13,753 nucleotides of DNA from a virus (lineage: Duplodnaviria; Heunggongvirae; Uroviricota; Caudoviricetes): positions 1 to 13,753 of the IMG/VR virus record IMGVR_UViG_3300029181_000068; one strand, 5' to 3'. Position 1 is the first letter of the stretch. Each line of letters opens with the position of its first letter. The notes under the pieces are model-generated. The model was not told the DNA's origin. It saw nothing but the letters and a program-made list of their open reading frames with translations, and did no database searches. Positions 1 through 13,344 of the stretch are shown piece after piece. A program made the position numbers and the translations under genes.

Positions 1-1928
1 TTACTGACAATGCCGAGCTTCTCCAGCAACCAGGAAACGCCGGATTTCAGGGAGTCCAGCGGATGCATGACCATATTCAGCCCTTCCGCCAGTGCCTCCC
101 CGAATCGCCGCCCCATTGCCGCTGCGCTCTGCAGTTCGGCAGAGGTCGACTTAACGGGCGTCAGCAGATCAGTAAACCAGCCCCACAGCGCCTGCACTTT
201 GTCGCCAATCCACTGGAACACGGGCTTAAGCGGTTCGAACGCTGCACTGATGGGACCTGCCGCCGCTTTGAATCCTTCCACCACGCCACCGAGAAATGCG
301 GTGATGGGTTGCCAGTATTTCCAGACAACCAGCGCCACGCCCGCCAGAGCAGTAACCACAAGACCTATCGGACTGAGCAGAGCACCTAACAGACCAGATA
401 TGGCATACAGGGCAACGCGCAGCATCGCCAGTGGACCAGATGCCAGTACTCGCAGCACCGTGCCTGCGGCGGTCAGTCCACCGCGCAGTACCGCCAGAGG
501 ATTCATAAACATCACAGCAACAGCACGTAAACCGGATAATCCAGACCGCAAAAGTGCAACCGGCGCACCTGCTACAGTTTTCAGGACATTTCCCGTCAGT
601 GATGCCGTGCGGCGCAAAGACGACAACGGCGCAGTAAGTAAACCTGCGGCGTTGCCCGATGAAGCAAGCCCGCGTCGCAGCAGTGCCAGTGGTGCGCCAG
701 CCAGCCAGGACAACGCGCTGCTGGTTCGAGTTACTGCTGCCGTAACGGAAGATAACGTTTTGATACCCAACACAGAGAATCCCAGACGGATCACTGCCAG
801 CGGCCCCAGCACTGCAGCCAGCGCCACCGCTAAGGTGCCGAGGCCGACGGTAACCGCAGCCACAACAGCCGATGCTTTCATCAGTGTGCCTGTCAGTTCC
901 GGGTTAGCTTCCACCCAGCGACGCAACGCCCCCGTGACGCTTTTCACCGTGTACAGAATATCCATCAGCGGCTGGCGCAGCGTTTCGCCCAGGCTGCTGA
1001 AGGTGTTCTGCGCTCCGGTTTTGACCAGCAACCACTGCGCAGAAAGTGAATCCTTGTTAATGTCGGATTCTTTCTGCATGGAGCCAAGCGCATCATTGCC
1101 CGCTGTCAGTTTTAACTGACGCTGCAGTTCTGGCAGGTTGTTTGCCAGTTTCGCCGCGTCATCGCCAAACTCTTTACCAAACAACATAGTCATGGCAGAC
1201 AGGCGCTTGTCCTGCGGCAGCGCGTTTACCTTCTCCAGCACGCGCTGGATGGTTCCCATCGCATCCTTCGTCATCTGCTTTTCAATCACTTCAGGATTGA
1301 GTTTCAGCAGATTCATCCCTTCAAAGAAACTCTTGCTTTGCATGGTGGCAATGGACAATTCACGCACCATCGCGTTTGCTGCACTGGCTGCAACCTCTGG
1401 CGCAGCGCCCAGTGTCAGGAAGGTGGAACCCAGCGCCGCCGCTTTACGATAATCCAGACGGTCAGCCACACCGCCCAGACGTTGCATCACATCAATGATG
1501 TCTGCCCCTTTCGACATGGCGTTATCATCCAGATAGTTCAGCGCATCACCGAGCTGTTCAATATTGCGGGTGGGGATTTTGTAGAGCTGGGCGATTTTCC
1601 CCAGACTTTCTGACAGTTCATCCGCTGGCAGCTCAAAGGCTGTTGCCGCCTTTGCTGCCGTACTGGCGAAGGCCAGCAGGTCACGTTTCTGATCTTCCCA
1701 GCTGTCGTCAGGGTTTGCGACGTTCATGCGCGCACCACCTTCAACCAGTGCAGCGAAGTCCACCGCACCGTTTTCCATCGGCAACTGTTCGCTGGCAGCC
1801 TTGATGGCATCCTGCATTTCATAAAAACGTGCAGTGCGGTTGCCATTATCGTCACGCAGACCATTGACCTGCTTTGCCACACCTTTCATGGCATCTTCCA
1901 TGCTGGTATAGCTTTTTACTGCCGCCAT
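1..1928 (-). CDS. Phage tail tape measure protein-like (P2 gpT-type), partial: 3' end lies beyond the window start; 5' region probably missing and fused to truncated gene I
   Basis: Minus-strand frame is open from the stop at 2058-2060 down to position 3 and continues off the window, so it is absent from the ORF track. Hand-translated at both ends: ATG at 1928-1926 gives MAAVKSYTSMEDAMKGVAKQVNG; the left edge reads ...AAMGRRFGEALAEGLNMVMHPLDSLKSGVSWLLEKLGIVS. A quicker, unverified read of the middle suggests an Ala/Gly/Leu-rich product with long hydrophobic stretches, as in tape measure proteins. The + strand ORF 10..1119 is its Ser/Thr/Pro/Arg-rich antisense shadow. Family assignment is from memory, not a search. 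Confidence 0.55.
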   Translation of the reverse strand, partial: MAAVKSYTSMEDAMKGVAKQVNGLRDDNGNRTARFYEMQDAIKAASEQLPMENGAVDFAALVEGGARMNVANPDDSWEDQKRDLLAFASTAAKAATAFELPADELSESLGKIAQLYKIPTRNIEQLGDALNYLDDNAMSKGADIIDVMQRLGGVADRLDYRKAAALGSTFLTLGAAPEVAASAANAMVRELSIATMQSKSFFEGMNLLKLNPEVIEKQMTKDAMGTIQRVLEKVNALPQDKRLSAMTMLFGKEFGDDAAKLANNLPELQRQLKLTAGNDALGSMQKESDINKDSLSAQWLLVKTGAQNTFSSLGETLRQPLMDILYTVKSVTGALRRWVEANPELTGTLMKASAVVAAVTVGLGTLAVALAAVLGPLAVIRLGFSVLGIKTLSSVTAAVTRTSSALSWLAGAPLALLRRGLASSGNAAGLLTAPLSSLRRTASLTGNVLKTVAGAPVALLRSGLSGLRAVAVMFMNPLAVLRGGLTAAGTVLRVLASGPLAMLRVALYAISGLLGALLSPIGLVVTALAGVALVVWKYWQPITAFLGGVVEGFKAAAGPISAAFEPLKPVFQWIGDKVQALWGWFTDLLTPVKSTSAELQSAAAMGRRFGEALAEGLNMVMHPLDSLKSGVSWLLEKLGIVS

Positions 1929-2356
1929 CACTGGCGCACCCATTGCCAGCCCTGCAGCCGTGGTGGTGGCTCCGGCACCTGCAATACGATCACGCACCTC
2001 CAGCGAACGGGCATATCCAGGCGAAACGTGCCCGGTGTTTCTCCGGTCTGCCACCACTCAATAATGCGGATCAGGAATCCGAACGGCTCCACCACCCGCC
2101 GCACGGCACTGGTGGTCCCTTTATGCTGATGAATATAAAAAGCATCCTTCACCACCTGGCGCTTGACGCTTTCTGTCCAGCCCTCGTCCCAGCGATCCAC
2201 AGAGAACGCCCAGGCGAGATAAGGCAGGAAACTGACCGGACAGGTTGCCGGATTCCACAAATCACGAAGCGGCACCTGCAGATCAGAAATCCCGCTGCAG
2301 GTTTGCGCCAGTCGGCGCTCCAGTGGTGTTGAACCCGGTGGCAGCAGACTATTCAT
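1928..2356 (-). CDS. I: Phage tail protein I (P2 gpI-like), apparently C-terminally truncated or frame-disrupted after about residue 114
   Basis: ORF of 142 aa. N-terminal ~114 aa (MNSLLPPGSTPLERRLAQ...LWNPATCP...LAWAFSVDRWDE...GTFRLD) resembles P2 gpI as I recall it (~176 aa). The last 28 aa (MPVRWRCVIVLQVPEPPPRLQGWQWVRQ) are Trp/Pro/Arg-rich and look like out-of-frame translation. Stop TGA at 1928-1930 overlaps the ATG at 1928-1926 of the downstream tape-measure frame. Confidence 0.75.
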   Translation of the reverse strand: MNSLLPPGSTPLERRLAQTCSGISDLQVPLRDLWNPATCPVSFLPYLAWAFSVDRWDEGWTESVKRQVVKDAFYIHQHKGTTSAVRRVVEPFGFLIRIIEWWQTGETPGTFRLDMPVRWRCVIVLQVPEPPPRLQGWQWVRQ

Positions 2357-2945
2357 CCGTTCCTCCGTTGGTTACGCTCCACTGCGTACATGATGCCGCC
2401 TGTGTTTTGTTCAGGACCACATCCGCCAGAGGAGAAGCCAGCTCCACACGCTGCACCCCCTCAACATGCAGGGCGGCAAAGATGGCGCTACGGCGAATAT
2501 CCCGACCAAGACGCGTCTGACTGGCGATGTACTTCTGCAGGCTGGCTTTTGCCGCTGCCATTACCGGCTCTGCTTCCGGTCCAGGATAGAGAAAAATGGT
2601 GGCTTCCACGCGATACGGGATGATTTCTGCGCTGCGAACCGTAAGACGGTCAGCCACCGGGCGGACGTTCTCACTGTTCAGAGCTTTTTCCACCACGTCC
2701 AGCAGGTCTTTTTCTGCAGTTCCATCGCCTTCGCGGCTAAGGACAGTCAGCACCACCTCTGCAGGTGCCGGGCTGGTTGCACTGGCATCCGCCACCCGAC
2801 CGTCGGCGCTTCGGGCATGAAATTCATAAGCTGCAGTTGGCCCCGCAACAGAAAGCCCTTCAAAGGCTGCAGGTACACGCAGGCGCAACGCTTCATCGCT
2901 TTCCATCACAGCTGCAACGGGCGGCAGCCTCCAGTACAAACTCAC
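2349..2945 (-). pseudogene. J: Baseplate assembly protein J (P2 gpJ-like), C-terminal ~2/3 only; N-terminal third missing
   Basis: 198-aa ORF whose track start is a GTG. The sequence PPVAAVMESDEALRLR...FEGLSVAG...HARSADGRVAD...RPVADR...LYPGPE...RLGRDIRRSAIFAALHVEGVQRVELASPLADVVL...TDE matches the C-terminal part of P2 gpJ (~302 aa) from memory. No native N-terminus or RBS. Overlaps the 3' end of the V fragment in another frame. Confidence 0.8.
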
Positions 2946-3357
2946 TGGTTTTCATGATGATGTTGTCAGCAGCCTCAATGACCATTGATTTGATGCCCCT
3001 GACATACCAGCGCCCGGTGGCGGGTTCGTATTCAAACCAGCCACCGTCAGGATGTTCTGTCACGCAGGCATCCGCCGACGTCGACGGTGGTGCGAACTGA
3101 TTCGAATAGACAGCGGGCAGCGCAAAGGCGGTTTCCAGATTGCCGCCCAGACTCAGCAGCACCACCTGCTCACCTTCCGATGGTCGCCACCATGTACGGG
3201 CATTCCCGGCACGCAGCGTCAGCCAGCTGATCCAGTTGGTTTCAAGCTCGCCCGTTTTCACCCGGCAAAGCCAGTTTTCCCTGTCCACTTCGGTGACTAC
3301 CCCTGTGCGGATCAGGTTGGTGATAAGGCGCATGATTTCGGTTAATTGTGCGTTCAT
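2893..3357 (-). CDS. V: Baseplate assembly/spike protein V (P2 gpV-like), N-terminal fragment ending in a premature stop
   Basis: 154-aa ORF with ATG at 3357-3355. N-terminus MNAQLTEIMRLITNLIRTGVVTEVD...RVKTG...WISWLTLRAGNARTWWRPSEGEQVVLLSLGGNLETAFALPAVYS has the gpV OB-fold pattern. Shorter than P2 gpV (~211 aa); its reading frame stops at 2893 inside the region where the J frame opens. Confidence 0.75.
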   Translation of the reverse strand: MNAQLTEIMRLITNLIRTGVVTEVDRENWLCRVKTGELETNWISWLTLRAGNARTWWRPSEGEQVVLLSLGGNLETAFALPAVYSNQFAPPSTSADACVTEHPDGGWFEYEPATGRWYVRGIKSMVIEAADNIIMKTSEFVLEAAARCSCDGKR

Positions 3358-3372
3358 AGGGAAAGGTTGCCA

Positions 3373-3930
3373 TCAGGGGAAGAAAGCCGGATTGCTTTCA
3401 CTCAGGACAGCGCCAATCGCTTTATGCAGACGCGCCCGTGACTGGTCCGGCATATCCAGACCGTCTGTCAGCTCCAGCGTCTGCAGCAACAGATCGGCAT
3501 CAAAGCCGGTGGCGGCAAGCATTGCGCTCTGCGCCGCGTCTGCCATTTCCTCTGCCAGCACGGTCTGCACATTGCGATTACCCAGCGGCATCACCCAGCC
3601 ATGACGCAGGGCGTGACGCCCGATCTCCAGCGCCCCGGCATAATCTCCGGCATCAATGCGCCACAGCATCACGTACATCAGCACGTCATCCTGTTGAGCG
3701 CCTCCGGCAGCCAGGACACCCTCCGCCCAGGCGGCGTACTTCGGCAGCAGCTCCACCTTGATTTCCGCTTTTTTGACCGTGGACTGAACGCCCTTGAGAC
3801 GGCGGCGGTCTTCCGCCAGTTGCAGCAGCATCAGGTCATAGCCCGACGCGTGGCGAACGCTGCCGCCCTCGCGGGCGGCCTGTTCAGCCTGAACGCGCAG
3901 GCGATGCTGCCGTGCGGGACTCAGGCTCAT
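3373..3930 (-). CDS. M: Terminase small (endonuclease) subunit, P2 gpM-like; possibly 3'-truncated
   Basis: 185-aa ORF, ATG at 3930-3928, 3 nt after the N stop (TAA 3936-3934). Resembles P2 gpM (QDDVLMYVMLWRIDAGDYAGALEIGRHALRHG, LELTDGLDMPDQSRARLHK). Shorter than the ~247 aa I recall for P2 gpM. Stop at 3373-3375 is only 15 bp from the V start. Confidence 0.8.
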   Translation of the reverse strand: MSLSPARQHRLRVQAEQAAREGGSVRHASGYDLMLLQLAEDRRRLKGVQSTVKKAEIKVELLPKYAAWAEGVLAAGGAQQDDVLMYVMLWRIDAGDYAGALEIGRHALRHGWVMPLGNRNVQTVLAEEMADAAQSAMLAATGFDADLLLQTLELTDGLDMPDQSRARLHKAIGAVLSESNPAFFP

Positions 3931-3933
3931 GAA

Positions 3934-4992
3934 TTACGCTCCGGTTTCTGCTGCTGCGGCGCTGAAGTCGCCAATCTGGATGTTTTCCACCAGTGCGGCG
4001 CAGCGGTAGTCCTCAACCACATAGGCTTCGTTAACGGATTCAAAGTTTTCAATCCGGTCACGTTTCGGGTTGTCGATAACTGAGCGGCGACGGGTGTCTT
4101 CCTGCCAGTAGATGGACAGGTTATCCAGACGGGTGATCAGCAGTGCATTCGGCGGGAAGAACGGCGCACGCACGGCCTGCAGGCCACCCATGCGTTTCTG
4201 ACTGATGATCATATCGGCAGCCAGTTTTTCACTGTTTTCCTGCTCTTTGTTGACCAGCGGGAAATACTTGTCAGACAGCAGTTCACGACCGCAAATCACC
4301 ACCAGATCGTCATCGTCCTGGTAGACCACATCGATAAGCTCATTGACGGCATCCATCACCACGGCGTCCAGGTTGGCATATTCGCCACCTTTCCCGACTT
4401 TCACCGCACCCGGTGTGGTTTCACCGCCCGTGGTGGTGCTGCCCATGACGTGATCCGGTGCATCTTCACGGATTTTCTGCAGCCAGCCTTTGTTCACATC
4501 CTGCAGCAGCGGGTTTTCGCTACGGTTGGAGGTTTTCGCACGCTTCACGCCGTTAAAGCCGATCATGATGCGGTCCAGAGCCTGACGTTTCACGATGGCG
4601 TCACGGATGCGCACCTGGAAATCCTGAAACTTCGCCCACAGGTCCAGCTTCGCGTAGGTCAGCACCGTGTCAAAGTTGGTCTGCTCGCATTTATATTCCA
4701 CATCGACCATCAGCGTCGGATCGACAGGTTCACGCTCTTTCGCGGTGGTGTCAGTGGTTCCGGCAATGGTGCTGCCAACTCCCAGCCCCAGCAGCTGACC
4801 GGACTGCTCAGTCACTGGCGTGACGTTAATCAGCGTCAGGAAAGCGGCGGACTGCTGGATCTGGTCTTCCAGCGTCTGCTGCACAGACGGCTCCACGGTG
4901 AACTTGCTGGACAGTTCTTCAACTGCCACACCGTTCAGACGCGCCAGCTGCTGCAGGTAAGCGTTAAAAGCAAAGCGGGTATTCTTCTTCAT
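3934..4992 (-). CDS. N: Major capsid protein, P2 gpN family
   Basis: 352-aa ORF. Near-collinear resemblance to P2 gpN as recalled (FNAYL...LNG, KFTVEPSV, IGFNGVKRA, NPLLQDVNKGWLQK, KVGKGG.YA.LDAVVMDA, DKYFPLVNKEQENSEKLAADMIISQKRMG, ENFES...YVVEDY). GGAG upstream of ATG 4992-4990. Confidence 0.95.
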   Translation of the reverse strand: MKKNTRFAFNAYLQQLARLNGVAVEELSSKFTVEPSVQQTLEDQIQQSAAFLTLINVTPVTEQSGQLLGLGVGSTIAGTTDTTAKEREPVDPTLMVDVEYKCEQTNFDTVLTYAKLDLWAKFQDFQVRIRDAIVKRQALDRIMIGFNGVKRAKTSNRSENPLLQDVNKGWLQKIREDAPDHVMGSTTTGGETTPGAVKVGKGGEYANLDAVVMDAVNELIDVVYQDDDDLVVICGRELLSDKYFPLVNKEQENSEKLAADMIISQKRMGGLQAVRAPFFPPNALLITRLDNLSIYWQEDTRRRSVIDNPKRDRIENFESVNEAYVVEDYRCAALVENIQIGDFSAAAAETGA

Positions 4993-5008
4993 CGGGTTTT
5001 GTGCTCCA

Positions 5009-5842
5009 TCAGCAATTGGTCAGAGTGTCAGCGGGGGCGTTACCGCCTGTTGCACGCTGGCGGTAGTCCTGGCGACTGTCTTCATGACTCAGCTTGTCCA
5101 CCAGTTCGTTAAAGGCGGTTTGCTGTGCCTGCAGGGCAGTCTCCAGCTCAGACAGGCGTTCTTCCTGCTCAGACAGGGATTTTTCGGTGCGTGCGCTCAG
5201 GTTCTGCTGCTCAGTGGCGACCAGCTCCACGGCCTTATGCACATCAGAGAACCGGGCGTCATCGGACTGCTCTTTTTTGGTAAACAGCGCCGTGACGCGG
5301 GCAAACAGGGACGGTTTGTCGTCCTGGATTTCTTCCAGTTCGATCACCGTTTCCTCTGCAGCGGTAAAGAGATTGGCAGGATTCTGCTTGCGGTTTGCCA
5401 GCGGGTTATGGGCTGCACTGGCGCTGAATGTCAGCATTTCCGTACCCAGACTGGCAGGGTCATCAGTGGCAGCCAGGCCGACCAGATAGGCTTTGCCCGT
5501 ATCAGCGAACTTCGGGCTGACTTCCATAGAGGTGAATAATTTCTGGCCTTTTTTCACCAGTTCCACCAGGGACTCCGTTGGCTCAACGTCGGCATACAGC
5601 GCCATCTTGCCTGCCAGCGGACCTTCCGTGATTTCTTCAGCAAACAGCGCCGTCACCTTGCCGTAGCGGTTAAAGGTGCTGTCCGGCAGATAAGACTTGA
5701 TGTGCTCAAGGTTAATCAGCGCGGTATACACCGCCGGGTTGTAGCTGGCTGCCATCTGTTCCAGCCATTCACGCTGGATTTCGCGTCCGTCGGTGGTGGC
5801 ACCTTCCACCCCGATGCGAAAACGCTTTGCTTTCACTGTCAT
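5009..5842 (-). CDS. O: Capsid scaffolding protein, P2 gpO family
   Basis: 277-aa ORF. Resembles P2 gpO (FRIGVEGATTDGREI, INLEHIKSYLPD, TSMEVSPKFADTGKAYLVGLAATDDPASLGTEML, ASDDARFSDVHKAV, C-terminal ATGG...TNC). GGAG 8 nt upstream of ATG 5842-5840. First gene of the leftward head operon. Confidence 0.95.
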   Translation of the reverse strand: MTVKAKRFRIGVEGATTDGREIQREWLEQMAASYNPAVYTALINLEHIKSYLPDSTFNRYGKVTALFAEEITEGPLAGKMALYADVEPTESLVELVKKGQKLFTSMEVSPKFADTGKAYLVGLAATDDPASLGTEMLTFSASAAHNPLANRKQNPANLFTAAEETVIELEEIQDDKPSLFARVTALFTKKEQSDDARFSDVHKAVELVATEQQNLSARTEKSLSEQEERLSELETALQAQQTAFNELVDKLSHEDSRQDYRQRATGGNAPADTLTNC

Positions 5843-5920
5843 GAGCCGTGCTCCGTTAGAAAAAACTTACTGGAGCCTTATGGTTGCGGTGATGGGGGCA
5901 GTGAAACAATGCGCGGTATT

Positions 5921-5938
5921 TGTACCGACAACCACACA
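5921..5938. promoter_or_regulatory. TGT-N12-ACA dyad (Ogr/Delta-type late activator box) in the divergent O/P late promoter region (5843-5984)
   Basis: Exact TGTaccgacaaccacACA in the 142-bp gap between divergent O (minus) and P (plus). P2-family late promoters carry TGT-N12-ACA centred near -55. The spacing fits the leftward O promoter best (dyad centre ~5929; plausible -10 CATAAG on the minus strand near 5876-5881; O ATG at 5842). Confidence 0.45.
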
Positions 5939-5984
5939 AACCGCAGGCGGGGAAAGCCTTCATTCAAGGCTGTAGGTTTGTGCC

Positions 5985-7751
5985 ATGAACACCACACTGA
6001 CACCCGCAGATCTCGATCCCCGTCGGCAGGCCATGCTGCTGTACTTTCAGGGATACCGCGTAGCCCGCATTGCTGAAATGCTGGGCGAGAAAGTTGCAAC
6101 CGTTCACAGCTGGAAAAAACGCGACAAGTGGGGTGACTATGGGCCGCTGGATCAGATGCAGCTCACCACCGCCGCACGCTACTGCCAGCTCATTATGAAG
6201 GAGCACAAAGAAGGGAAAGATTTCAAAGAGATTGACCTGCTGGCGCGCCAGTCGGAGCGCCATGCGCGGATCGGCAAGTTTAACAATGGCGGCAACGAAG
6301 CCGACTTAAACCCTAACGTCGCCAACCGCAACAAAGGCCCGCGCCGTCAGCCGGAAAAGAACGTTTTCACCGATGAACAGATTGAGAAGCTGGAAGAAAT
6401 CTTTTATTCCTCCATGTTCAACTACCAGCGCCACTGGTGGGAAGCCGGAAAAACCAACCGCATCCGCAACCTGCTGAAGTCACGCCAGATCGGCGCGACC
6501 TTTTACTTTGCCCGTGAAGCCCTGATTGACGCCCTGCTTACCGGACGTAACCAGATTTTCCTTTCTGCCAGTAAGGCACAGGCGCACGTCTTTAAGCAGT
6601 ACATCATCGACTTTGCCAAAGAAGTTGAGGTGGAGCTGAAAGGCGATCCTATGGTGCTACCTAATGGCGCAGCATTGTACTTTCTCGGCACCAACGCCCG
6701 TACGGCGCAGAGCTACCACGGCAACCTGTACCTTGATGAATATTTCTGGATACCGAAATTCCAGGAACTGCGCAAAGTTGCCTCCGGGATGGCCATTCAC
6801 AAGAAATGGCGACAAACCTACTTTTCCACGCCGTCCAGCCTGACCCACAGTGCCTATCCGTTCTGGTCCGGTGCGCTGTTTAACCGGGGCCGCGCCAAAG
6901 CGGACAAGGTGGATATTGACCTGACCCACAGCAATCTTGCGCGCGGCCTGCTCTGCCCTGACGGACAGTACCGCCAGATAGTCACTGTGGAAGATGCGGT
7001 GCGCGGCGGCTGTAACCTGTTCGACCTCGACCAGTTGCGCATGGAGTACAGCCCGGACGAATACCAGAACCTGTTGATGTGCGAGTTTGTGGACGATCTC
7101 GCGTCCGTGTTTCCGCTCAGCGAGCTGCAGGCGTGCATGGTGGACAGTTGGGAAGTCTGGACCGACTTTCATGCACTGGCCCTGCGCCCGTTTGGCTGGC
7201 GCGAAGTCTGGATCGGATACGACCCGGCGAAAGGCACGCAAAACGGCGACAGCGCCGGATGCGTGGTGGTGGCACCGCCAGCCGTGCCGGGTGGTAAGTT
7301 CCGCATTCTTGAGCGTCACCAGTGGCGCGGGATGGACTTCCGCGCCCAGGCTGACGCCATCAAAAAACTGACCGAACAGTACAACGTGACCTATATCGGT
7401 ATCGACTCAACCGGCGTTGGTCACGGGGTTTACGAGAACGTGAAAGCGTTTTTTCCTGCCGTCCGGGAGTTTGTCTACAACCCCAACGTTAAAAACGCCC
7501 TGGTACTCAAGGCCTACGACATTATTAGCCACCGCCGCCTGGAGTTTGACGCAGGGCACACCGACATAGCGCAGTCCTTTATGGCAATCCGTCGCGCCAC
7601 CACTGCCAGCGGCAACCGCCCGACCTATGAAGCCAGCCGCAGCGAAGAAGCCAGCCACGCCGATCTGGCCTGGGCAACAATGCACGCACTGTTTAATGAA
7701 CCGCTGCAGGGCGAGTCCGCCAATACCAGCAATATTGTGGAGATTTTTTGA
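5985..7751 (+). CDS. P: Terminase large (ATPase) subunit, P2 gpP family
   Basis: 588-aa ORF; P2 gpP is ~590 aa. Resembles the P2 terminase ATPase subunit (MLLYFQGYRVARIAEMLGEK, KSRQIGATFYF Walker A-like, NLYLDEYFWIP, IGYDPA...GDSAG). Stop TGA at 7749-7751 overlaps the Q ATG. Confidence 0.95.
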   Translation: MNTTLTPADLDPRRQAMLLYFQGYRVARIAEMLGEKVATVHSWKKRDKWGDYGPLDQMQLTTAARYCQLIMKEHKEGKDFKEIDLLARQSERHARIGKFNNGGNEADLNPNVANRNKGPRRQPEKNVFTDEQIEKLEEIFYSSMFNYQRHWWEAGKTNRIRNLLKSRQIGATFYFAREALIDALLTGRNQIFLSASKAQAHVFKQYIIDFAKEVEVELKGDPMVLPNGAALYFLGTNARTAQSYHGNLYLDEYFWIPKFQELRKVASGMAIHKKWRQTYFSTPSSLTHSAYPFWSGALFNRGRAKADKVDIDLTHSNLARGLLCPDGQYRQIVTVEDAVRGGCNLFDLDQLRMEYSPDEYQNLLMCEFVDDLASVFPLSELQACMVDSWEVWTDFHALALRPFGWREVWIGYDPAKGTQNGDSAGCVVVAPPAVPGGKFRILERHQWRGMDFRAQADAIKKLTEQYNVTYIGIDSTGVGHGVYENVKAFFPAVREFVYNPNVKNALVLKAYDIISHRRLEFDAGHTDIAQSFMAIRRATTASGNRPTYEASRSEEASHADLAWATMHALFNEPLQGESANTSNIVEIF

Positions 7752-8776
7752 TGGGAAAGAGTAAGAAAAACCGCGCTGCGGCGACGAATCAGCTCAAGCA
7801 TAAAAGCCAAACTTCAGCCGAAGCATTCAGCTTTGGCGATCCCGTTCCTGTTCTGGACCGCCGTGAACTGCTGGACTATGTGGAATGCGTACAGATGGAT
7901 CGCTGGTATGAGCCGCCCGTCAGCTTTGACGGACTGGCACGAACCTTCCGCGCCGCCGTGCATCACAGCTCACCAATTGCGGTGAAATGCAACATTCTGA
8001 CCAGTACCTACATCCCTCACCCGCTGCTCAGCCAGCAGGCTTTTTCACGTTTTGTGCAGGACTATCTGGTATTTGGTAACGCCTACCTGGAGAAACGCAC
8101 GAACCGCTTCGGTGAAGTTATCGCCCTTGAGCCTGCTCTGGCAAAATACACCCGACGCGGGTTAGACCTGGATACCTACTGGTTTGTGCAATACGGTATG
8201 ACAACCCAGCCGTATCAGTTCACGAAAGGCAGCATTTTTCATCTGATGGAACCTGACATCAACCAGGAGATCTACGGCCTACCAGGTTATCTTTCTGCCA
8301 TTCCGTCAGCCCTGCTCAACGAGTCCGCCACGCTGTTCCGCCGGAAGTATTACATTAACGGCAGCCATGCAGGCTTCATCATGTACATGACCGATGCCGC
8401 GCAGAACCAGGAGGATGTGAACAACCTCCGCAATGCGATGAAAAGCGCCAAAGGCCCTGGCAACTTCCGCAACCTGTTTATGTACTCGCCTAACGGCAAA
8501 AAGGACGGGCTTCAGATCATCCCGTTGTCAGAAGTCGCGGCGAAGGATGAATTTCTGAACATCAAGAACGTCAGCCGTGATGACATGATGGCGGCACACC
8601 GCGTACCGCCTCAGATGATGGGAATTTTGCCGAATAATGTTGGGGGTTTTGGTGATGTGGAGAAGGCGAGCTGCGTCTTCGTAAGAAATGAACTATTACC
8701 ACTTCAAAAAAGATTCATGGAAATAAACAGATGGCTTGGTCATGAAATTATAAATTTTGAAATATATACATTATAA
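7751..8776 (+). CDS. Q: Portal (capsid portal vertex) protein, P2 gpQ family; last ~30 codons AT-rich
   Basis: The ORF track starts at TTG 7748; the likely start is ATG 7751 (MGKSKKNR...), overlapping the P stop as TGATG. 341 aa; P2 gpQ is ~344 aa. Portal-like throughout (GNAYLEKR, YWFVQYG, GLPGYLSAIPSALLNE, YYINGSHAGFIMYMTD, MMGILPNNVGGFGDVEKA). Codon usage turns AT-rich from ~8680 (AGA, CTA, TTA, ATA codons). Confidence 0.95.
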   Translation: MGKSKKNRAAATNQLKHKSQTSAEAFSFGDPVPVLDRRELLDYVECVQMDRWYEPPVSFDGLARTFRAAVHHSSPIAVKCNILTSTYIPHPLLSQQAFSRFVQDYLVFGNAYLEKRTNRFGEVIALEPALAKYTRRGLDLDTYWFVQYGMTTQPYQFTKGSIFHLMEPDINQEIYGLPGYLSAIPSALLNESATLFRRKYYINGSHAGFIMYMTDAAQNQEDVNNLRNAMKSAKGPGNFRNLFMYSPNGKKDGLQIIPLSEVAAKDEFLNIKNVSRDDMMAAHRVPPQMMGILPNNVGGFGDVEKASCVFVRNELLPLQKRFMEINRWLGHEIINFEIYTL

Positions 8777-8813: not shown

Positions 8814-9875
8814 TTAATATTCAAAATTATTTTCTTCAATAGAGAACTCAATCCCTCGGGATAACTTATCAATATTCACATCAAATGCGATATCTGTTAA
8901 TTCACCATCCTCGATTTCATACATAACTTCAATTTCAATATCGAAACTAATCTCTTGAACTTCAGTTCGTGTGGTTGTCTCCATTGGAATCATTACTTTA
9001 TCTTCGCTATCCCAATACCCATTATTAAAGTCTGGACCAGAAACAGTAACTTCAAAATCTACAGAAACAGAGAAGGTCGCTAGACAATAATTATTGTCAA
9101 TCTTAATTATTGATGGTTCAAAGTCATCAATATTGACGACTTCAAATGAATCCAATTCAGCGTCTTCCCAAGTTGAAACGTTATATCCATCGGCATCATT
9201 GAGTTGGGCAATTACGTCCGCTCTTATGTCTTCACGTTTGCTTTCGATAAACTGCATCAATTTATTACTTAATTCGTTTGTATGCGTATTGTATTCACCT
9301 AGAAACTTATCAAGTGAATCAATTTGATGAAGATTGTTTTTACCATCACAATAATTTTTTAAGTCACTATCCTCAGAAATGATATACACATCTTCATCAT
9401 TAACAAATCGCTCTACCGCAGCTAAAGTGATTGCATCAGGAAACTCACTTTTTTTCTTATTTTGCCCAAATGGTGGTTCTTTGCCAAAGTATTTATCTAA
9501 AACCTCATTAAGATCTATCACTTCTATTGTAGCTAATTTGGCGTGACATCCTTTCAAAAAATCATCAAAAACTTTTTGTGCTGCTTCGTGAATTTCATGT
9601 TCGTTAAATTGCTGAAAAAAACCATGGAGCGGTCCATTATCAATACTATTCAAAAGCCTAGCTTTTCTTTGTACTGTGTTTATAGCCTGCAGAGCATCCT
9701 TTATTGATTCCTCTATTTTACCTTTTACTTCTCTCTCTACAACTGTAGTTGTAATTAAGACTAAATCACCTTTCGCACATAATTCATGGAAAGCTTTAAA
9801 TGCTACCCCCTCAAAATGAAGACCAGCCTTTACGTACGTTTGTGTGTCAATAAATACCTTATTTGTTTTAAGCAT
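8814..9875 (-). CDS. PIN-like nuclease-domain protein with an acidic C-terminal domain; candidate stand-alone defence or abortive-infection gene
   Basis: 353-aa ORF in AT-rich DNA. ATG 9875-9873 with AGGA 5 nt upstream. N-terminal ~170 aa carry PIN-like acidic motifs (KVFIDTQ; LVLITTTVVEREV; EFPDAITLAAVERFV; VYIISEDSDL). C-terminal ~150 aa are very Asp/Glu-rich with alternating hydrophobics (FDIEIEVMYEIEDGELTDIAFDVNID). Domain call is by motif pattern only. Confidence 0.7.
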   Translation of the reverse strand: MLKTNKVFIDTQTYVKAGLHFEGVAFKAFHELCAKGDLVLITTTVVEREVKGKIEESIKDALQAINTVQRKARLLNSIDNGPLHGFFQQFNEHEIHEAAQKVFDDFLKGCHAKLATIEVIDLNEVLDKYFGKEPPFGQNKKKSEFPDAITLAAVERFVNDEDVYIISEDSDLKNYCDGKNNLHQIDSLDKFLGEYNTHTNELSNKLMQFIESKREDIRADVIAQLNDADGYNVSTWEDAELDSFEVVNIDDFEPSIIKIDNNYCLATFSVSVDFEVTVSGPDFNNGYWDSEDKVMIPMETTTRTEVQEISFDIEIEVMYEIEDGELTDIAFDVNIDKLSRGIEFSIEENNFEY

Positions 9876-10001
9876 ACTAATCCTAATAAGTTTTAAGATC
9901 CGCTACAATTGTTTATGTTTATTTTTTATCAATAATCATACGTAGTTAAGATTATCCATGTCGAAAAATTAAATCAACTTCAATTTATCCTTAAGCGCGC
10001 G

Positions 10002-10020
10002 CTCGTATCCCCGCCACGCC
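10002..10020 (-). other. Candidate cos site (19-nt cohesive end, P2/186-like)
   Basis: Minus strand reads GGCGTGGCGGGGATACGAG followed by CGCGCGCTTAAGG. The P2 left end as I remember it is GGCGAGGCGGGGAAAGCAC then TGCGCGCTGACGG (about 24 of 32 matches; position 5 T as in phage 186). Orientation fits P2: cos, then Q and P transcribed toward cos. It is a GC-rich patch inside otherwise AT-rich accessory DNA. Confidence 0.5.
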
Positions 10021-10382
10021 TGCCCGCTTTATGTAGTGGTTTTCATGCACCTGCATGACATAAGCAAAAGCACGCCAGTTCTGGCTGACTTCAGCAAAAA
10101 CGATCCTCAAACGATCATGCGATCTCATGCGTCATAGTCATGCGCTGCCAAGGGAAGCGTAAATCCGTATCTGAATGACTGCTGAAAAGCGAATCATACG
10201 GGTTTACAAAGATGAAAGTTCGCTGTGAGCGAGAAGCGAACCTTGCAACTTTGTTGGCACAGTTTTAACACCAATTTTTTGAGGATAGCTAGAAAACTTG
10301 TGGCATAAAGGATCAGTTTCCCGATCGAACTTTTTATCAAGAAGGGCTCATAGCAATCGCCAGAAGAAGTGATGTTAAAGTA

Positions 10383-10411
10383 TTGAGCTCGGCGTTAAGA
10401 TTAAATAAATT
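10383..10411 (+). promoter_or_regulatory. Candidate sigma70-type promoter for the SIR2-HerA operon
   Basis: TTGAGC, 17-nt spacer, TAAATT, about 35 nt upstream of ATG 10445 (RBS AAGGA at 10435-10439). Weak match in AT-rich DNA; other candidates exist. Confidence 0.25.
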
Positions 10412-10444
10412 ACAGACTAATCCAATGTTTTGTGGAAGGATAAG

Positions 10445-11488
10445 ATGGCAGTCAAGCGCGCATACTACGGTAACGATAGTGACCGAGACTACTTAGAGCG
10501 GATATTTCAGTCAGCTAACATTAACTTTCTCATCGGATCAGGTGCATCCCTCCCAGCGATTAAAGTACTGGGGACAATCGAAACGGATCTTCAGCAGCTT
10601 ATTAATGATGAACAGGAAGATGAATACTTAAGGATGGCAGCTGACTTTTTGTCAGATGTTTGGCTACCTCATGAATGCATGTTGAAGCGCGGCTACGGCA
10701 CCCCCTTCGCACCTCAGGTGATCACCGATTTGGAATGTACCCGTGCAAATTATGATGCATTTATGTCTTCTCTGGAAAAGATACTGACCCGCCGCCGAAC
10801 TGGCCTACTTCCGAGGCGTATTAACGTTTTTACAACTAATTATGATTTATTCATCGAAGAAGCTGCCACACGTAATAACAATATTCTTTTTAATGATGGA
10901 TTCAATAGAAGAGCAAGTATTTTGGGAGATGCGGAATTTGATGCGGGTAGCTTTAATCATTCTGTAAGTGCAACCGGAAATCTGTATAATTATAAAGTTG
11001 AGCTTCCTACTGTTAACCTTATAAAACTTCATGGTTCGCTCTCTTGGCAGCATTCTAAAGGGAAAATCATTTATCGTATTGCAGATATTAAGCCGCTTGA
11101 CTTTCCCACCCTAGCCGAAATGAAAGGATGGGTACTTGCTCATGCACTTATTCTTCCACGTAAGGAGAAGTTTAAAGAGACTCTACTACAGAACGTTTAT
11201 TATGATTTACTGAGAACCTATTCCAACGAGCTTGATAAAGAAGCAACTTTACTAATTGTCTTTGGGTTCTCGTTTGCTGATGAGCACATTGAAACGATAA
11301 CTAAAAAAGCCCTGCGCAACGCCACCCTGAAGCTACTGATCTTTGCTTTCGATGAGGCCAGTGTTAACGGCTTTATGGAGAAATTTCGGGATTACTCAAA
11401 CGTAGAGATTATTTATCGGCCGGGAAGAAATGTTGATTTTCCGGTAATGAATAACATTATCACGTGCTATCTGGGAGGCTCGAGATGA
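10445..11488 (+). CDS. SIR2-like (sirtuin-fold) NAD-binding protein, defence-associated type
   Basis: ORF track starts at TTG 10430; the likely start is ATG 10445 (MAVKRAYYG...), 5 nt after AAGGA. 347 aa. Sirtuin-like motifs: Gly-rich loop FLIGSGAS (10532-10549), VFTTNYDLFIEEA (TQN-like) and IKLHGSLSW (catalytic His region). AT-rich codon usage. Stop TGA at 11486-11488 overlaps the HerA ATG. Confidence 0.9.
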   Translation: MAVKRAYYGNDSDRDYLERIFQSANINFLIGSGASLPAIKVLGTIETDLQQLINDEQEDEYLRMAADFLSDVWLPHECMLKRGYGTPFAPQVITDLECTRANYDAFMSSLEKILTRRRTGLLPRRINVFTTNYDLFIEEAATRNNNILFNDGFNRRASILGDAEFDAGSFNHSVSATGNLYNYKVELPTVNLIKLHGSLSWQHSKGKIIYRIADIKPLDFPTLAEMKGWVLAHALILPRKEKFKETLLQNVYYDLLRTYSNELDKEATLLIVFGFSFADEHIETITKKALRNATLKLLIFAFDEASVNGFMEKFRDYSNVEIIYRPGRNVDFPVMNNIITCYLGGSR

Positions 11489-13344
11489 GCAGGCATTTTA
11501 CTGAAGAGGAAGCGGTGCTCCGTATAGGCGAAGTCTGTGAGGTTTCTGGACGCGCTGTGACAATTTTGGTCGATAAAAACAAAAATCTCAGTGACTTGTT
11601 TTATCAGGGAAAAGTTCTAAGAAATGTATCAGTGGGTAGCTTCATTGAGATCAAAAAAGGTTTCATGAGCCTGATCGGCAAGGTTGAAGCGGAACGAATC
11701 ATTGAGGAAAAACATCTCGCTGGGAGCGGCAGTGATGCCTGGCGATATCGGCGATACCTGACCTCTACTCTTACGGGTTACATTGATCGTACTGGTTGCT
11801 TCATTGGTGGTTCGCGTGAACTACCTCTCATCGGCAATGAAGTCTTCGTGGTAACTGAAGAGATGATACAGACGGTTCATCAGATAGCTGATGCAGACGA
11901 AACTGTAATGAGGTTTACTCGTACAGATCTTGAAGATATTGAAATTGCACTACCAATCAATGGTCTTATTAATTCCCACATTGCCATTTTCGGTAATACA
12001 GGCAGCGGAAAGTCAAATACCCTAGCCGCGCTATACAAAGCAGGTATTGCCCAAGTTAAACATATTCTCGGCAACCACTTTAGTGAAAGATGCAAATTTA
12101 TTCTATTCGACTTTAATGGAGAATATACTGCCCCACGCTGTATTACTGACGAGAAGACGGTTTATAATCTCAACACGCACCATGCAAATGGTGACAAACT
12201 TCCTCTACCCAGAGAGGTTCTACTTGAGCATGATATGCTCTCAGTTCTAACCGATGCAACAGACAAAACACAGAAACCTTTCCTGAAGAGAGTTCTTGAG
12301 TTTCGCAAGAAAGTGATGACTGCTGATAATCCTCTTGAGTTTATGCGCAATATCCTGAAGAAAAAAGTCAGACAAAATCTCTTTAGTAGCGACAAACCCA
12401 AATGCGATACTATAAATCAGTTTCTTAGCCCAATTTTCAAAGATGACCCAGAACTTATATCTGATCTTGAGTATCATTCAACTGCATATAAATGGAAATT
12501 GAGGGGTGGTAGTATTTTCAATACAGAAGCTGATACTGAGCGCTCCTATCTATTCAGTCTTGCAAGCAATTTTTCATTTAAAACTGATATGATTGAAGAA
12601 CTGTTGGACTTTATGTACTTACAGTTAATACAGGAATATTTATCTAACAAGTCTAACCCTGAACATATTTCACCAGTTATAAATAGAATGAGTGCTAACC
12701 GTAAAGATATAGCCAAAATATTTGATACTTCCGGACAGTCTGACTTTTGGGGTGAACATAATTTCACGGTTGTGAATCTAAATATGGTTAATATAACCAT
12801 GAAAAAAACGCTTCCTCTTTTGATAGCCAAGTGGGCTTACAATATGAAGAAAATGTCTACAGAGAAATCTACACTGCACATCATTATAGATGAAGCCCAC
12901 AATATTTTGTCTAATACTTCTTTTCGGGAAACGGAAAGTTGGAGAGATTATCGTCTGGAAACTTTTGAGGAAATCATAAAGGAGGGGAGAAAATTTGGAG
13001 TTTTTATCACAATTTCCAGTCAACGCCCTAATGATATATCGTCGACAATCATATCCCAAGCACACAATTATTTTATTCATCGCCTTATTAATCAGAATGA
13101 TCTGTACGCAATTGAAAAATCAGTATCATATATAGATCGACTGACTGAAGAGTCGATTCCAACGCTATCTACAGGAACCTGTATTTTTAGTGGTATCGTC
13201 TGCCCCATGCCGCTCAAATTAAGGGTAGCTGAACTTCCAATTGAAGAAAAACCTAAGAGTAATACTATTTCCTTCAACGATTTAATACCTGAGAGGCTGG
13301 GAGAGGATGACCAGAGCGACTACGTAATAACCAGCCCTCACTAA
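11485..13344 (+). CDS. HerA-like (FtsK/HerA superfamily) ATPase, partner of the SIR2-like protein
   Basis: ORF track starts at GTG 11464 inside the SIR2 gene; the likely start is ATG 11485 (MSRHFTEEE...), with GGGAGG 6 nt upstream and an ATGA overlap with the SIR2 stop. 619 aa. Walker A FGNTGSGKSNT (11992-12015), Walker B LHIIIDEAH (12880-12900), and a downstream FITISSQRPNDIS motif. AT-rich. Confidence 0.9.
   Translation: MSRHFTEEEAVLRIGEVCEVSGRAVTILVDKNKNLSDLFYQGKVLRNVSVGSFIEIKKGFMSLIGKVEAERIIEEKHLAGSGSDAWRYRRYLTSTLTGYIDRTGCFIGGSRELPLIGNEVFVVTEEMIQTVHQIADADETVMRFTRTDLEDIEIALPINGLINSHIAIFGNTGSGKSNTLAALYKAGIAQVKHILGNHFSERCKFILFDFNGEYTAPRCITDEKTVYNLNTHHANGDKLPLPREVLLEHDMLSVLTDATDKTQKPFLKRVLEFRKKVMTADNPLEFMRNILKKKVRQNLFSSDKPKCDTINQFLSPIFKDDPELISDLEYHSTAYKWKLRGGSIFNTEADTERSYLFSLASNFSFKTDMIEELLDFMYLQLIQEYLSNKSNPEHISPVINRMSANRKDIAKIFDTSGQSDFWGEHNFTVVNLNMVNITMKKTLPLLIAKWAYNMKKMSTEKSTLHIIIDEAHNILSNTSFRETESWRDYRLETFEEIIKEGRKFGVFITISSQRPNDISSTIISQAHNYFIHRLINQNDLYAIEKSVSYIDRLTEESIPTLSTGTCIFSGIVCPMPLKLRVAELPIEEKPKSNTISFNDLIPERLGEDDQSDYVITSPH

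What the first reader, a model, noticed from the sequence alone, without database searches (positions are those of the whole stretch)
2893..2960. V'-'J fusion junction: gene W and parts of V and J deleted
The V frame has a proper N-terminus but stops at 2893 after 154 aa. A different frame then carries the C-terminal two thirds of J, starting mid-protein (PPVAAVMESD...). No W-like ORF lies between. This is the pattern of an internal deletion fusing V to J out of frame.
Basis: partly seen in the sequence, partly recalled or inferred. Interest (0 to 1): 0.4.

Follow-up and report, generated by a model that had tools for sequence, protein, structure and literature searches.

The report
Deletion scar in a decaying prophage
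An 821-base deletion in a P2-like prophage has removed baseplate gene W and joined the front of V to the back of J out of frame; it is one of three such deletions in a dead prophage, which is ordinary prophage decay.

Summary
On the minus strand, ORF 2893-3357 encodes residues 1-144 of a 192-aa gpV homologue plus 10 out-of-frame residues. A different frame carries residues 112-302 of gpJ. No W homologue exists anywhere in the window. Compared with intact relatives, one of which is identical on both flanks, exactly 821 bp are missing. The breakpoint is at 2925/2926, with only a 2-bp (CA) microhomology.

It is not an isolated event. A 6,482-bp deletion (tape-measure T to I, junction 2013-2015) and a 3,391-bp deletion (M to the V leader, junction 3384-3386) lie within 1.4 kb of it. 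Together they remove the tail, lysis and head-completion genes.

The junctions are real. The fused ORF and all three junctions recur in independently assembled human-gut metagenome contigs. None occurs in 5,426 complete E. coli genomes.

The same prophage family, which in sequenced relatives sits next to host gene ybjL, shows many other independent deletion patterns. The best reading is a recently inactivated P2-like prophage decaying by illegitimate (RecA-independent) deletions, with an intact SIR2-HerA defence cargo.

Interest is low. Two side observations are left open: the same deleted backbone carries different defence cargo in another contig, and the M/V junction is shared with a 2.4%-diverged remnant.

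The parts
1..2015 (-). 'T: 3' part of the tape-measure gene, from codon 178 onward. It runs off the left end of the window and has no start codon.
   Evidence: blastn: window 1-2015 matches L001 220-2234 at 99.85%. Pfam PhageMin_Tail 1e-18. Matches P2 T residues 586-719 by tblastn.
2013..2015 (.). Junction D1: a 6,482-bp deletion joining I codon 114 to T codon 178 out of frame, with ATA microhomology. It removes the I C-terminus, tail fibre genes, invertase, sheath, tube, E/E' and the T N-terminus.
1928..2356 (-). I': a 142-aa ORF made of gpI residues 1-114 plus 28 out-of-frame residues read from T sequence.
   Evidence: tblastn gives I residues 1-118 of 201. Pfam Tail_P2_I 1.8e-47, profile positions 1-116 of 139.
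2349..2926 (-). 'J: gpJ residues 112-302, with no native start and no Baseplate_J_N domain. Gene callers start it at the internal ATG at 2906 (185 aa).
   Evidence: 191/191 identical to L001 J. Pfam Baseplate_J profile positions 112-254 only. Precomputed hits Baseplate_J_M and Baseplate_J_C, without _N.
2925..2926 (.). Junction D2 (the finding): an 821-bp deletion with CA microhomology. The junction 24-mer at 2914-2937 is unique.
   Evidence: 0 mismatches to the intact prophage L030 in 914 + 457 nt of flanks. Flanking sequences are the same in 5 more intact relatives. Present in L003, L004 and L005.
2893..3357 (-). V': a 154-aa ORF made of gpV residues 1-144 (OB domain retained) plus 10 foreign residues. 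The C-terminal beta-helix/apex with the HxH motif is lost.
   Evidence: Pfam Phage_base_V 5.6e-18 at residues 17-84. The intact V aligns to P2 gpV structures 3qr8, 3qr7 and 3aqj, including C-terminal ...AHQHTG....
3358..3386 (-). The 29 nt of native V leader that remain. The TGT-N12-ACA late-activator site of the V promoter, at L001 10926-10943, lies in the deleted part.
3384..3386 (.). Junction D3: a 3,391-bp deletion covering the M C-terminus, L, X, holin, lysozyme, lysA/B/C, R, S and the V promoter. Microhomology is AAG, or AAGCCGG against the commoner allele.
3373..3930 (-). M': small terminase residues 1-182 of 216 plus FFP.
   Evidence: tblastn 182/182. Pfam Phage_term_smal 1.5e-40.
3934..8776 (.). 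Intact head module: N (3934-4992, -), O (5009-5842, -), P (5985-7751, +) and Q (7748-8776, +).
   Evidence: N and O are 100% and P 99.15% identical over full length to L001 proteins. The exact P and Q proteins are widespread in intact prophages.
7419..7525 (.). Mosaic switch zone. To its left the window is identical to L003 (the deleted backbone). To its right it matches L014/L018 (a different Q end and defence cargo).
8814..13344 (.). Cargo of the cos-proximal hotspot: a PIN_12 protein (8814-9875, -), SIR2 (10430-11488, +) and HerA-like ATPase (11464-13344, +).
   Evidence: Pfam. PADLOC SIR2 6e-211 and HerA 6e-267. 99.98% identical to L018.

Best explanation
The window is part of a defective P2-like (Peduoviridae) prophage. 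In sequenced relatives this prophage family sits next to ogr/ybjL in E. coli-type chromosomes. The feature at 2925/2926 is the scar of a genuine 821-bp deletion. It removed the 3' quarter of baseplate-spike gene V, all of wedge gene W and the 5' third of wedge gene J, and it left V' and 'J in different frames.

This is one of three colinear deletions (6.48 kb, 0.82 kb, 3.39 kb). Together they strip the prophage of its tail, lysis and head-completion functions. The head genes N, O, P and Q and the SIR2-HerA defence cargo remain intact.

Shown:
- the exact endpoints and sizes;
- identity of the flanks to intact relatives;
- recurrence of the junctions in other assemblies;
- loss of the V late-promoter activator site.

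Inferred:
- Each deletion arose by RecA-independent illegitimate joining at 2-3 bp microhomologies, through end-joining of a resected break or template slippage/switching during replication.
- The events are evolutionarily recent, because the flanks are 99.9-100% identical to intact phages.
- D2 itself is selectively neutral decay in an element already disabled, or disabled at the same time.
- Any residual V'/'J/I' expression would come only from read-through of the O-N-M' operon.
For: - Four colinear blocks against the intact prophage L001 define three gaps.
- Exact junctions and microhomologies are ATA, CA and AAG. The chance of microhomology at least this long at all three is about 4e-4 (0.051 x 0.156 x 0.051).
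- The nearest intact prophage, L030, is identical over 914 + 457 nt flanking D2 and again gives 821 bp and CA.
- Five other intact relatives have the same flanking sequences.
- Protein-level truncations and the absence of W, S, R, lysis genes, L, X, sheath, tube and fibres are confirmed by tblastn.
- The exact 154-aa V' product is encoded on a MEGAHIT contig and a Logan contig of run ERR589870, and on a SPAdes contig of ERZ773111 at 47x. All are 100% identical to the window across the junctions.
- The same prophage family shows other, different deletion architectures in isolate genomes: L014, L018, L020, L022, L024, L040 and L006.
- Defective P2-like elements with intact defence genes are described in PMC13586616.
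- Microhomology-using, RecA/RecB-independent end-joining that yields large deletions in E. coli is summarised in PMC4872102, citing Chayot et al. 2010.
Against: - A 2-bp microhomology at D2 alone is not distinguishable from a blunt random join.
- No intermediate with only one or two of the deletions was found, so the order of events, or a single complex event, is unresolved.
- None of the three junctions is in 5,426 complete E. coli genomes, the GTDB species representatives or IMG/VR. All support for the junctions therefore comes from metagenome or read-archive assemblies.
- The window itself is a mosaic whose provenance I could not establish.
Confidence: 0.9

Rival explanations
1. Assembly or sequencing artefact: the V'-'J join was created by an assembler or by chimeric reads, and the real genome has intact V-W-J.
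For: Every sequence carrying the junction comes from short-read metagenome or read-archive assemblies. The window is itself a mosaic with a switch in a 107-bp shared stretch, so some mis-joining in this material cannot be excluded.
Against: The two sides of D2 share only 2 bp, far below any assembler k-mer, so a de Bruijn graph cannot jump there. Three assemblies made with different software give identical junctions, one at 47x coverage. Contigs L004 and L005 run through D2 and D3 without breaking, which argues against a co-resident intact copy in those samples.
Confidence: 0.04
2. One complex event: the three deletions arose together, either by serial template switching of a stalled fork or by rejoining the fragments of a shattered region, rather than as three successive decay steps.
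For: The three junctions lie within 1.4 kb. They leave small colinear islands of 912 and 460 bp in the same orientation, each joined at 2-3 bp microhomology. Wherever D2 is seen, D3 is also seen. D1 is also seen where the contig reaches it: L003/L007/L008 do, while L004 and L005 start right of D1. No intermediates were found in any collection searched.
Against: The D3 junction occurs without D2 or D1 in L006. However, a further deletion there would have erased D2 and D1 if they had been present. Sampling of draft genomes was limited.
Confidence: 0.3
3. Selected remodelling (domestication): the truncated V'/'J/I' products or the retained head module have a new function for the host, for example poisoning baseplate assembly of incoming P2-like phages, and the deletions were shaped by selection.
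For: N, O, P and Q are full length. Differences between the window and L006 in M' and N are almost all at third codon positions. The defence cargo is intact.
Against: The flanks are 99.9-100% identical to intact phages, so intact ORFs are expected from recency alone. The synonymous pattern is what variation among functional phages gives. Related remnants keep quite different gene subsets; L006 lacks O and half of P, and L014 lacks O, N and M. All three fusions are out of frame, or run into non-coding sequence at D3, and V' has lost its own promoter element.
Confidence: 0.04
4. Site-specific or programmed deletion, for example by the prophage's Hin/Cin-type invertase or its integrase.
For: Intact relatives encode a recombinase-family invertase near the tail-fibre genes.
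Against: The endpoints lie inside the V and J coding sequence and share only CA. There is no repeated recombination site on the two sides in six intact relatives. The invertase gene itself lies inside D1.
Confidence: 0.01

Closest known systems
Defective (cryptic) P2-like prophages of E. coli that retain hotspot defence genes, as described in PMC13586616 and, for the hotspot itself, PMC9122126
   Same: P2-type gene order Q-P / O-N-M ... V-W-J-I ... T. Core genes are lost or pseudogenised by deletion. An intact defence system (SIR2+HerA) sits in the cos-proximal hotspot between gpQ and gpA.
   Different: This particular three-deletion architecture is not in any of 5,426 complete E. coli genomes, GTDB representatives or IMG/VR. 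It is one more allele of a common process.
Bacteriophage P2 baseplate genes V, W and J (NC_001895; gpV structures 3qr8, 3qr7, 3aqj)
   Same: V' is 44% identical to P2 gpV over the OB domain. 'J is 66% identical to P2 gpJ residues 111-302. Gene order is the same.
   Different: V in this lineage is 192 aa, against 211 aa in P2. Here V lacks the spike apex, J lacks its N-terminal domain and W is absent, so no baseplate can be built.
RecA-independent illegitimate deletion / alternative end-joining in E. coli (Chayot et al. 2010, as cited in PMC4872102)
   Same: Deletions of 0.8-6.5 kb are joined at 2-3 bp microhomologies with no long repeats.
   Different: The mechanism is inferred from the scars only. 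Replication slippage or template switching would leave the same scars.

Membership tests
P2-like prophage (Peduoviridae) | Divergent Q-P and O-N-M head operons with P2-family capsid, scaffold, terminase and portal proteins | tested here: met
   N, O and P match the intact relative over full length. Pfam Phage_cap_P2, Phage_GPO_N, Terminase_6N/6C and Phage_portal are found on identical proteins. The DNA is 95-97% identical to named Peduoviridae phages.
P2-like prophage (Peduoviridae) | Complete V-W-J-I-H-G baseplate/fibre operon and FI-FII-E-T-U-D tail operon | tested here: not met
   Only V(1-144), J(112-302), I(1-114) and T(178-) remain. There is no hit for W, H, G, FI, FII or E. It is therefore a remnant, not a functional member.
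Defective / cryptic prophage | Essential morphogenesis and lysis genes missing or truncated relative to otherwise near-identical intact phages | tested here: met
   Three deletions totalling 10,694 bp relative to L001. The flanks are 99.85-100% identical to intact prophages.
gpV baseplate spike (Pfam Phage_base_V plus Apex) | N-terminal OB domain | tested here: met
   PF04717 5.6e-18, residues 17-84.
gpV baseplate spike (Pfam Phage_base_V plus Apex) | C-terminal beta-helix and apex with HxH metal site | tested here: not met
   V' ends at residue 144. The intact relative has ...AHQHTG... near residue 175, aligned to P2 THKHPG. The Apex hit occurs only on the 192-aa intact proteins.
gpJ (Baseplate_J) | N, M and C domains all present with a native start codon | tested here: not met
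   Profile positions 112-254 only. Baseplate_J_M and _C are present without _N. Intact relatives have all three.
gpW (GPW_gp25) | Presence of a gp25-like wedge gene between V and J | tested here: not met
   tblastn with relative W and P2 W finds no hit in the window.
SIR2-HerA defence system (cargo, not the finding) | Adjacent SIR2-domain and HerA-type ATPase genes | tested here: met
   PADLOC SIR2 6.3e-211 and HerA 6.1e-267 over full length. The genes overlap by 25 nt. Activity was not tested.

The most novel reading that the evidence does not exclude
The same triple-deleted backbone (window 1808-7525, zero mismatches, all three junctions) is joined to two different portal ends and defence cargos. 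The window carries PIN_12 plus SIR2-HerA. Metagenome contig L003 carries a PDDEXK_GAPS4-type three-gene set. If neither contig is a chimera, an already defective prophage exchanged its hotspot cargo by homologous recombination within a 107-bp stretch of gene P. That would be a direct example for the question left open in PMC13586616, namely whether defective elements still swap defences. The D3 junction shared with the 2.4%-diverged remnant L006 would fit the same picture of deletion alleles and flanks being shuffled by recombination.
Probability: 0.35. Interest if true: 0.4.

Novelty: new member of a known kind. Interest (0 to 1): 0.12.

Why it matters
By itself it matters little. It documents, to the base, how a P2-like prophage is dismantled by short-homology deletions, and it explains why V and J look odd here. 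Annotators should label V, J, I, M and T in this window as pseudogene fragments.

The wider context is mildly useful. One prophage family at one chromosomal site offers a natural series of independent decay states with intact defence cargo. This series could be used to measure how fast, and in what order, prophage functions are lost while defence genes are kept.

Tried and rejected
- Junction k-mers. The D2 24-mer was searched in GTDB representative genomes, IMG/VR and JGI metagenome contigs, with no hits. D1 and D3 26-mers in IMG/VR also gave no hits.
- A probe that was not specific. A 22-mer meant to mark D3 was searched in genome, metagenome and viral collections. It hit five intact phages, because their V leader naturally reads AAGCCGG. 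It did show that D3's microhomology may be 7 bp rather than 3 bp.
- Complete E. coli genomes. All three junctions were searched in 5,426 complete genomes and none was found, so no intermediates were recovered.
- Source contig. I tried to find the window's source contig through exact look-ups of its P, Q and PIN_12 proteins. These proteins are too common (119 to 1,332 index blocks), and only long isolate contigs were returned.
- Head-module domestication. I considered it and set it aside, because the flanks are 99.9-100% identical to intact phages and related remnants keep different subsets.
- Recombinase-mediated deletion. Rejected because the endpoints share no site.
- Structure prediction, large protein-database searches and RNA tools were not used. 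The question was settled at the DNA level.

Full report
**What is at the coordinates.** The minus strand of the window carries a P2-type late region. ORF 2893-3357 (154 aa, ATG start) and ORF 2349-2945 are in different frames and overlap by about 50 nt.

An intact E. coli prophage (L001, NZ_CP025865) has V (192 aa), W (119 aa) and J (302 aa) in that order. Against it:
- The 154-aa ORF matches V residues 1-144 at 143/144, then has 10 unrelated residues.
- The other frame is identical to J residues 112-302.
- tblastn with W of the relative and of P2 finds nothing in the whole window.
- Identity to P2 itself is 44% for V and 66% for J.
- Pfam sees only the OB domain of V, and only profile positions 112-254 of Baseplate_J.
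- The intact V aligns to the solved P2 gpV spike, including the C-terminal HxH apex motif that V' has lost.

**The breakpoint.** blastn of the window against L001 gives four colinear blocks. Exact extension from both sides places the V/J join at window 2925/2926. The missing segment is 821 bp (3 x 273 + 2), which explains the frame change. The only shared bases are CA, within an imperfect GCGGCA/GCGGTCA.

The flanking sequences are the same in five other intact relatives. The prophage in isolate assembly GCA_028632145.1 (L030) has no mismatch to the window over the 914 nt left and the 457 nt right of the join, and it gives the same 821 bp and CA. The deletion is therefore evolutionarily young.

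**It is one of three deletions.** The same comparison shows two more deletions.
- D1 is 6,482 bp. It joins I codon 114 to tape-measure codon 178 at 2013-2015 (ATA). It removes the rest of I, the tail fibre genes, the invertase, sheath, tube, E/E' and the start of T.
- D3 is 3,391 bp. It joins M codon 182 to a point 29 nt upstream of V at 3384-3386. The microhomology is AAG, or AAGCCGG if the ancestor had the commoner leader allele. It removes L, X, holin, lysozyme, lysA/B/C, R and S.

D3 also removes the TGT-N12-ACA element upstream of V in intact relatives. That element has the form of the Ogr/Delta activator site annotated upstream of V in P2 (the motif assignment rests on established knowledge of P2 late promoters). 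Both TGT-N12-ACA matches in the O/P intergenic region (5921, 5979) are retained.

N, O, P and Q are full length. At D1 and D2 the upstream gene reads on out of frame, and at D3 M' runs 3 codons into the V leader. With equal base frequencies, microhomology of at least 3, 2 and 3 bp at three random joins has probability about 4e-4. The 2 bp at D2 alone has probability 0.16.

**Is it real?** The exact 154-aa V' protein is on record on four contigs only:
- a MEGAHIT contig (L003) and a Logan contig (L004) of human-gut run ERR589870;
- a SPAdes contig at 47x from ERZ773111 (L005);
- one similar place that was not shown.

L004 and L005 are 100% identical to the window over 2040-6766 and 2079-6583. 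L003 is identical over 1808-7525 and contains all three junctions. A 2-3 bp overlap cannot cause a k-mer assembler to jump, so the joins must be present in reads.

None of the three junctions occurs in 5,426 complete E. coli genomes. The D2 24-mer is absent from GTDB representatives, IMG/VR and JGI metagenome contigs. The allele is real but rare.

**Context: a family that decays repeatedly.** Look-ups of the window's PIN_12, P and Q proteins returned many prophages of the same family. Where the host flank is visible, they lie between an integrase and ogr next to ybjL-ybjM-grxA-nfsA-rimK. Most have intact V (192 aa), W (119 aa) and J (302 aa).

Several have other, unrelated deletions:
- L014: P' joined to 'T;
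- L018: Q' joined to X, and lysB joined towards U;
- L020: O to sheath;
- L022: M' joined to U;
- L024: P to ogr;
- L040;
- L006.

This is the familiar picture of prophage inactivation by deletion. Defective P2-like elements that keep intact defence genes are explicitly described in PMC13586616. The gpA-gpQ hotspot and SIR2+HerA as its cargo are described in PMC9122126. The window's cargo fits: PADLOC scores are 6e-211 for SIR2 and 6e-267 for HerA.

**Mechanism.**
- Shown: endpoints, sizes, minimal microhomology, absence of any repeated site, and youth of the event.
- Inferred: RecA-independent illegitimate recombination. This could be ligation of resected ends at microhomologies, reported for E. 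coli to give deletions of up to 40 kb (PMC4872102 citing Chayot et al. 2010). It could equally be slippage or template switching during replication.
- Not resolved: whether the three deletions were successive or one complex event. They always co-occur where the contig is long enough, and no intermediate was found.

D3 occurs without D2 and D1 in L006. There, however, V' is cut again at about residue 75 and joined to sequence near ogr, which would have erased D2 and D1.

**Consequence.** No baseplate, tail or lysis is possible, so the element is a dead prophage. V', 'J and I' are pseudogene fragments that could be transcribed only by read-through from the O operon.

**Unexplained and side observations.**
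1. L006 shares the D3 junction exactly but differs from the window at 46 of 1,933 positions, almost all third codon positions. In contrast, the window's M'-N is 99.9% identical to intact prophages, and L006's is at most 98.1% identical to any complete E. coli genome. Simple descent from one deleted ancestor does not fit these distances. Recombination around the junction, where only 154 bp are identical, or recurrence are the options.
2. The window is a mosaic. It is identical to L003 up to 7525, and it matches L014/L018 with two mismatches from 7419 to the end. L003 is itself coherent with the intact prophage L030, at 99.84% over 8.6 kb including its GAPS4-type cargo. Either a defective prophage has swapped its portal end and defence cargo, or the window is a chimeric contig. 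This does not affect D2.
3. A cos-like sequence lies at about 10002-10020, inside a 150-bp island conserved among prophages with different cargo. PIN_12 is on the Q side of it and SIR2-HerA on the other.

**Verdict.** The finding is correct and fully explained: an out-of-frame V'-'J deletion scar in a recently degraded P2-like prophage, one of three such scars. It is an ordinary instance of a well-known process. The specific allele is new to the reference collections searched, so the interest is low.

Noticed in passing
window 2013-2015: A second deletion scar (6,482 bp, ATA microhomology) joins gpI codon 114 to tape-measure codon 178 out of frame. It removes the tail fibre, invertase, sheath, tube and E/E' genes.
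   Followed up: yes
window 3384-3386: A third deletion scar (3,391 bp) joins small-terminase codon 182 to the V leader. It removes L, X, the lysis cassette, R, S and the TGT-N12-ACA activator site of the V promoter. Microhomology is 3 bp against L001/L030 but 7 bp (AAGCCGG) against the commoner leader allele.
   Followed up: yes
L006 6535-6547 (equivalent to window 3384-3396); window 3133-5065: The M'/V-leader junction is shared exactly with a further-decayed remnant in a 39-kb contig (ERR14041721). That remnant is 2.4% diverged, mostly at third codon positions, while the window is 99.9% identical to intact phages. This is inconsistent with simple common descent of the deletion. Recombination or recurrence could explain it, and it remains unresolved.
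   Followed up: partly
window 7419-7525: The window is a mosaic. To the left it is identical to metagenome contig L003, which has the same three deletions but a PDDEXK_GAPS4-type cargo. To the right it is near-identical to L014/L018, which carry PIN_12 plus SIR2-HerA cargo. This is either a cargo swap in an already defective prophage or an assembly chimera.
   Followed up: partly
window 10430-13344: An intact SIR2 plus HerA-type ATPase defence pair, with full-length PADLOC matches, lies in the cos-proximal P2 hotspot. It is 99.98% identical to the cargo of another, differently decayed remnant (L018).
   Followed up: partly
window 8814-9875: A 353-aa PIN_12-domain protein lies directly downstream of the portal gene, convergent with it. 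It has no PADLOC match. It is present at the same position in many prophages of this family whatever the neighbouring cargo. Its function is unknown.
   Followed up: partly
window 9994-10143 (about 10002-10020, minus strand): A 150-bp island is conserved among prophages with different cargo. It contains GGCGTGGCGGGGATACGAG, which matches the P2 cohesive end at 14 of 19 positions, with colinear short matches to the P2 cos region. It is probably the cos site, which would split the hotspot into a Q-side part (PIN_12) and an A-side part (SIR2-HerA).
   Followed up: partly
L014, L018, L020, L022, L024, L040 (isolate assemblies): The same prophage family shows at least six other independent deletion architectures, next to ybjL where the host flank is in the locus. 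This gives a natural series of decay states.
   Followed up: partly
window 10-1119 (+): A 369-aa plus-strand ORF lies antisense to the tape-measure fragment. It has a low-complexity Ala/Ser/Pro-rich translation and is most likely a spurious antisense frame.
   Followed up: no
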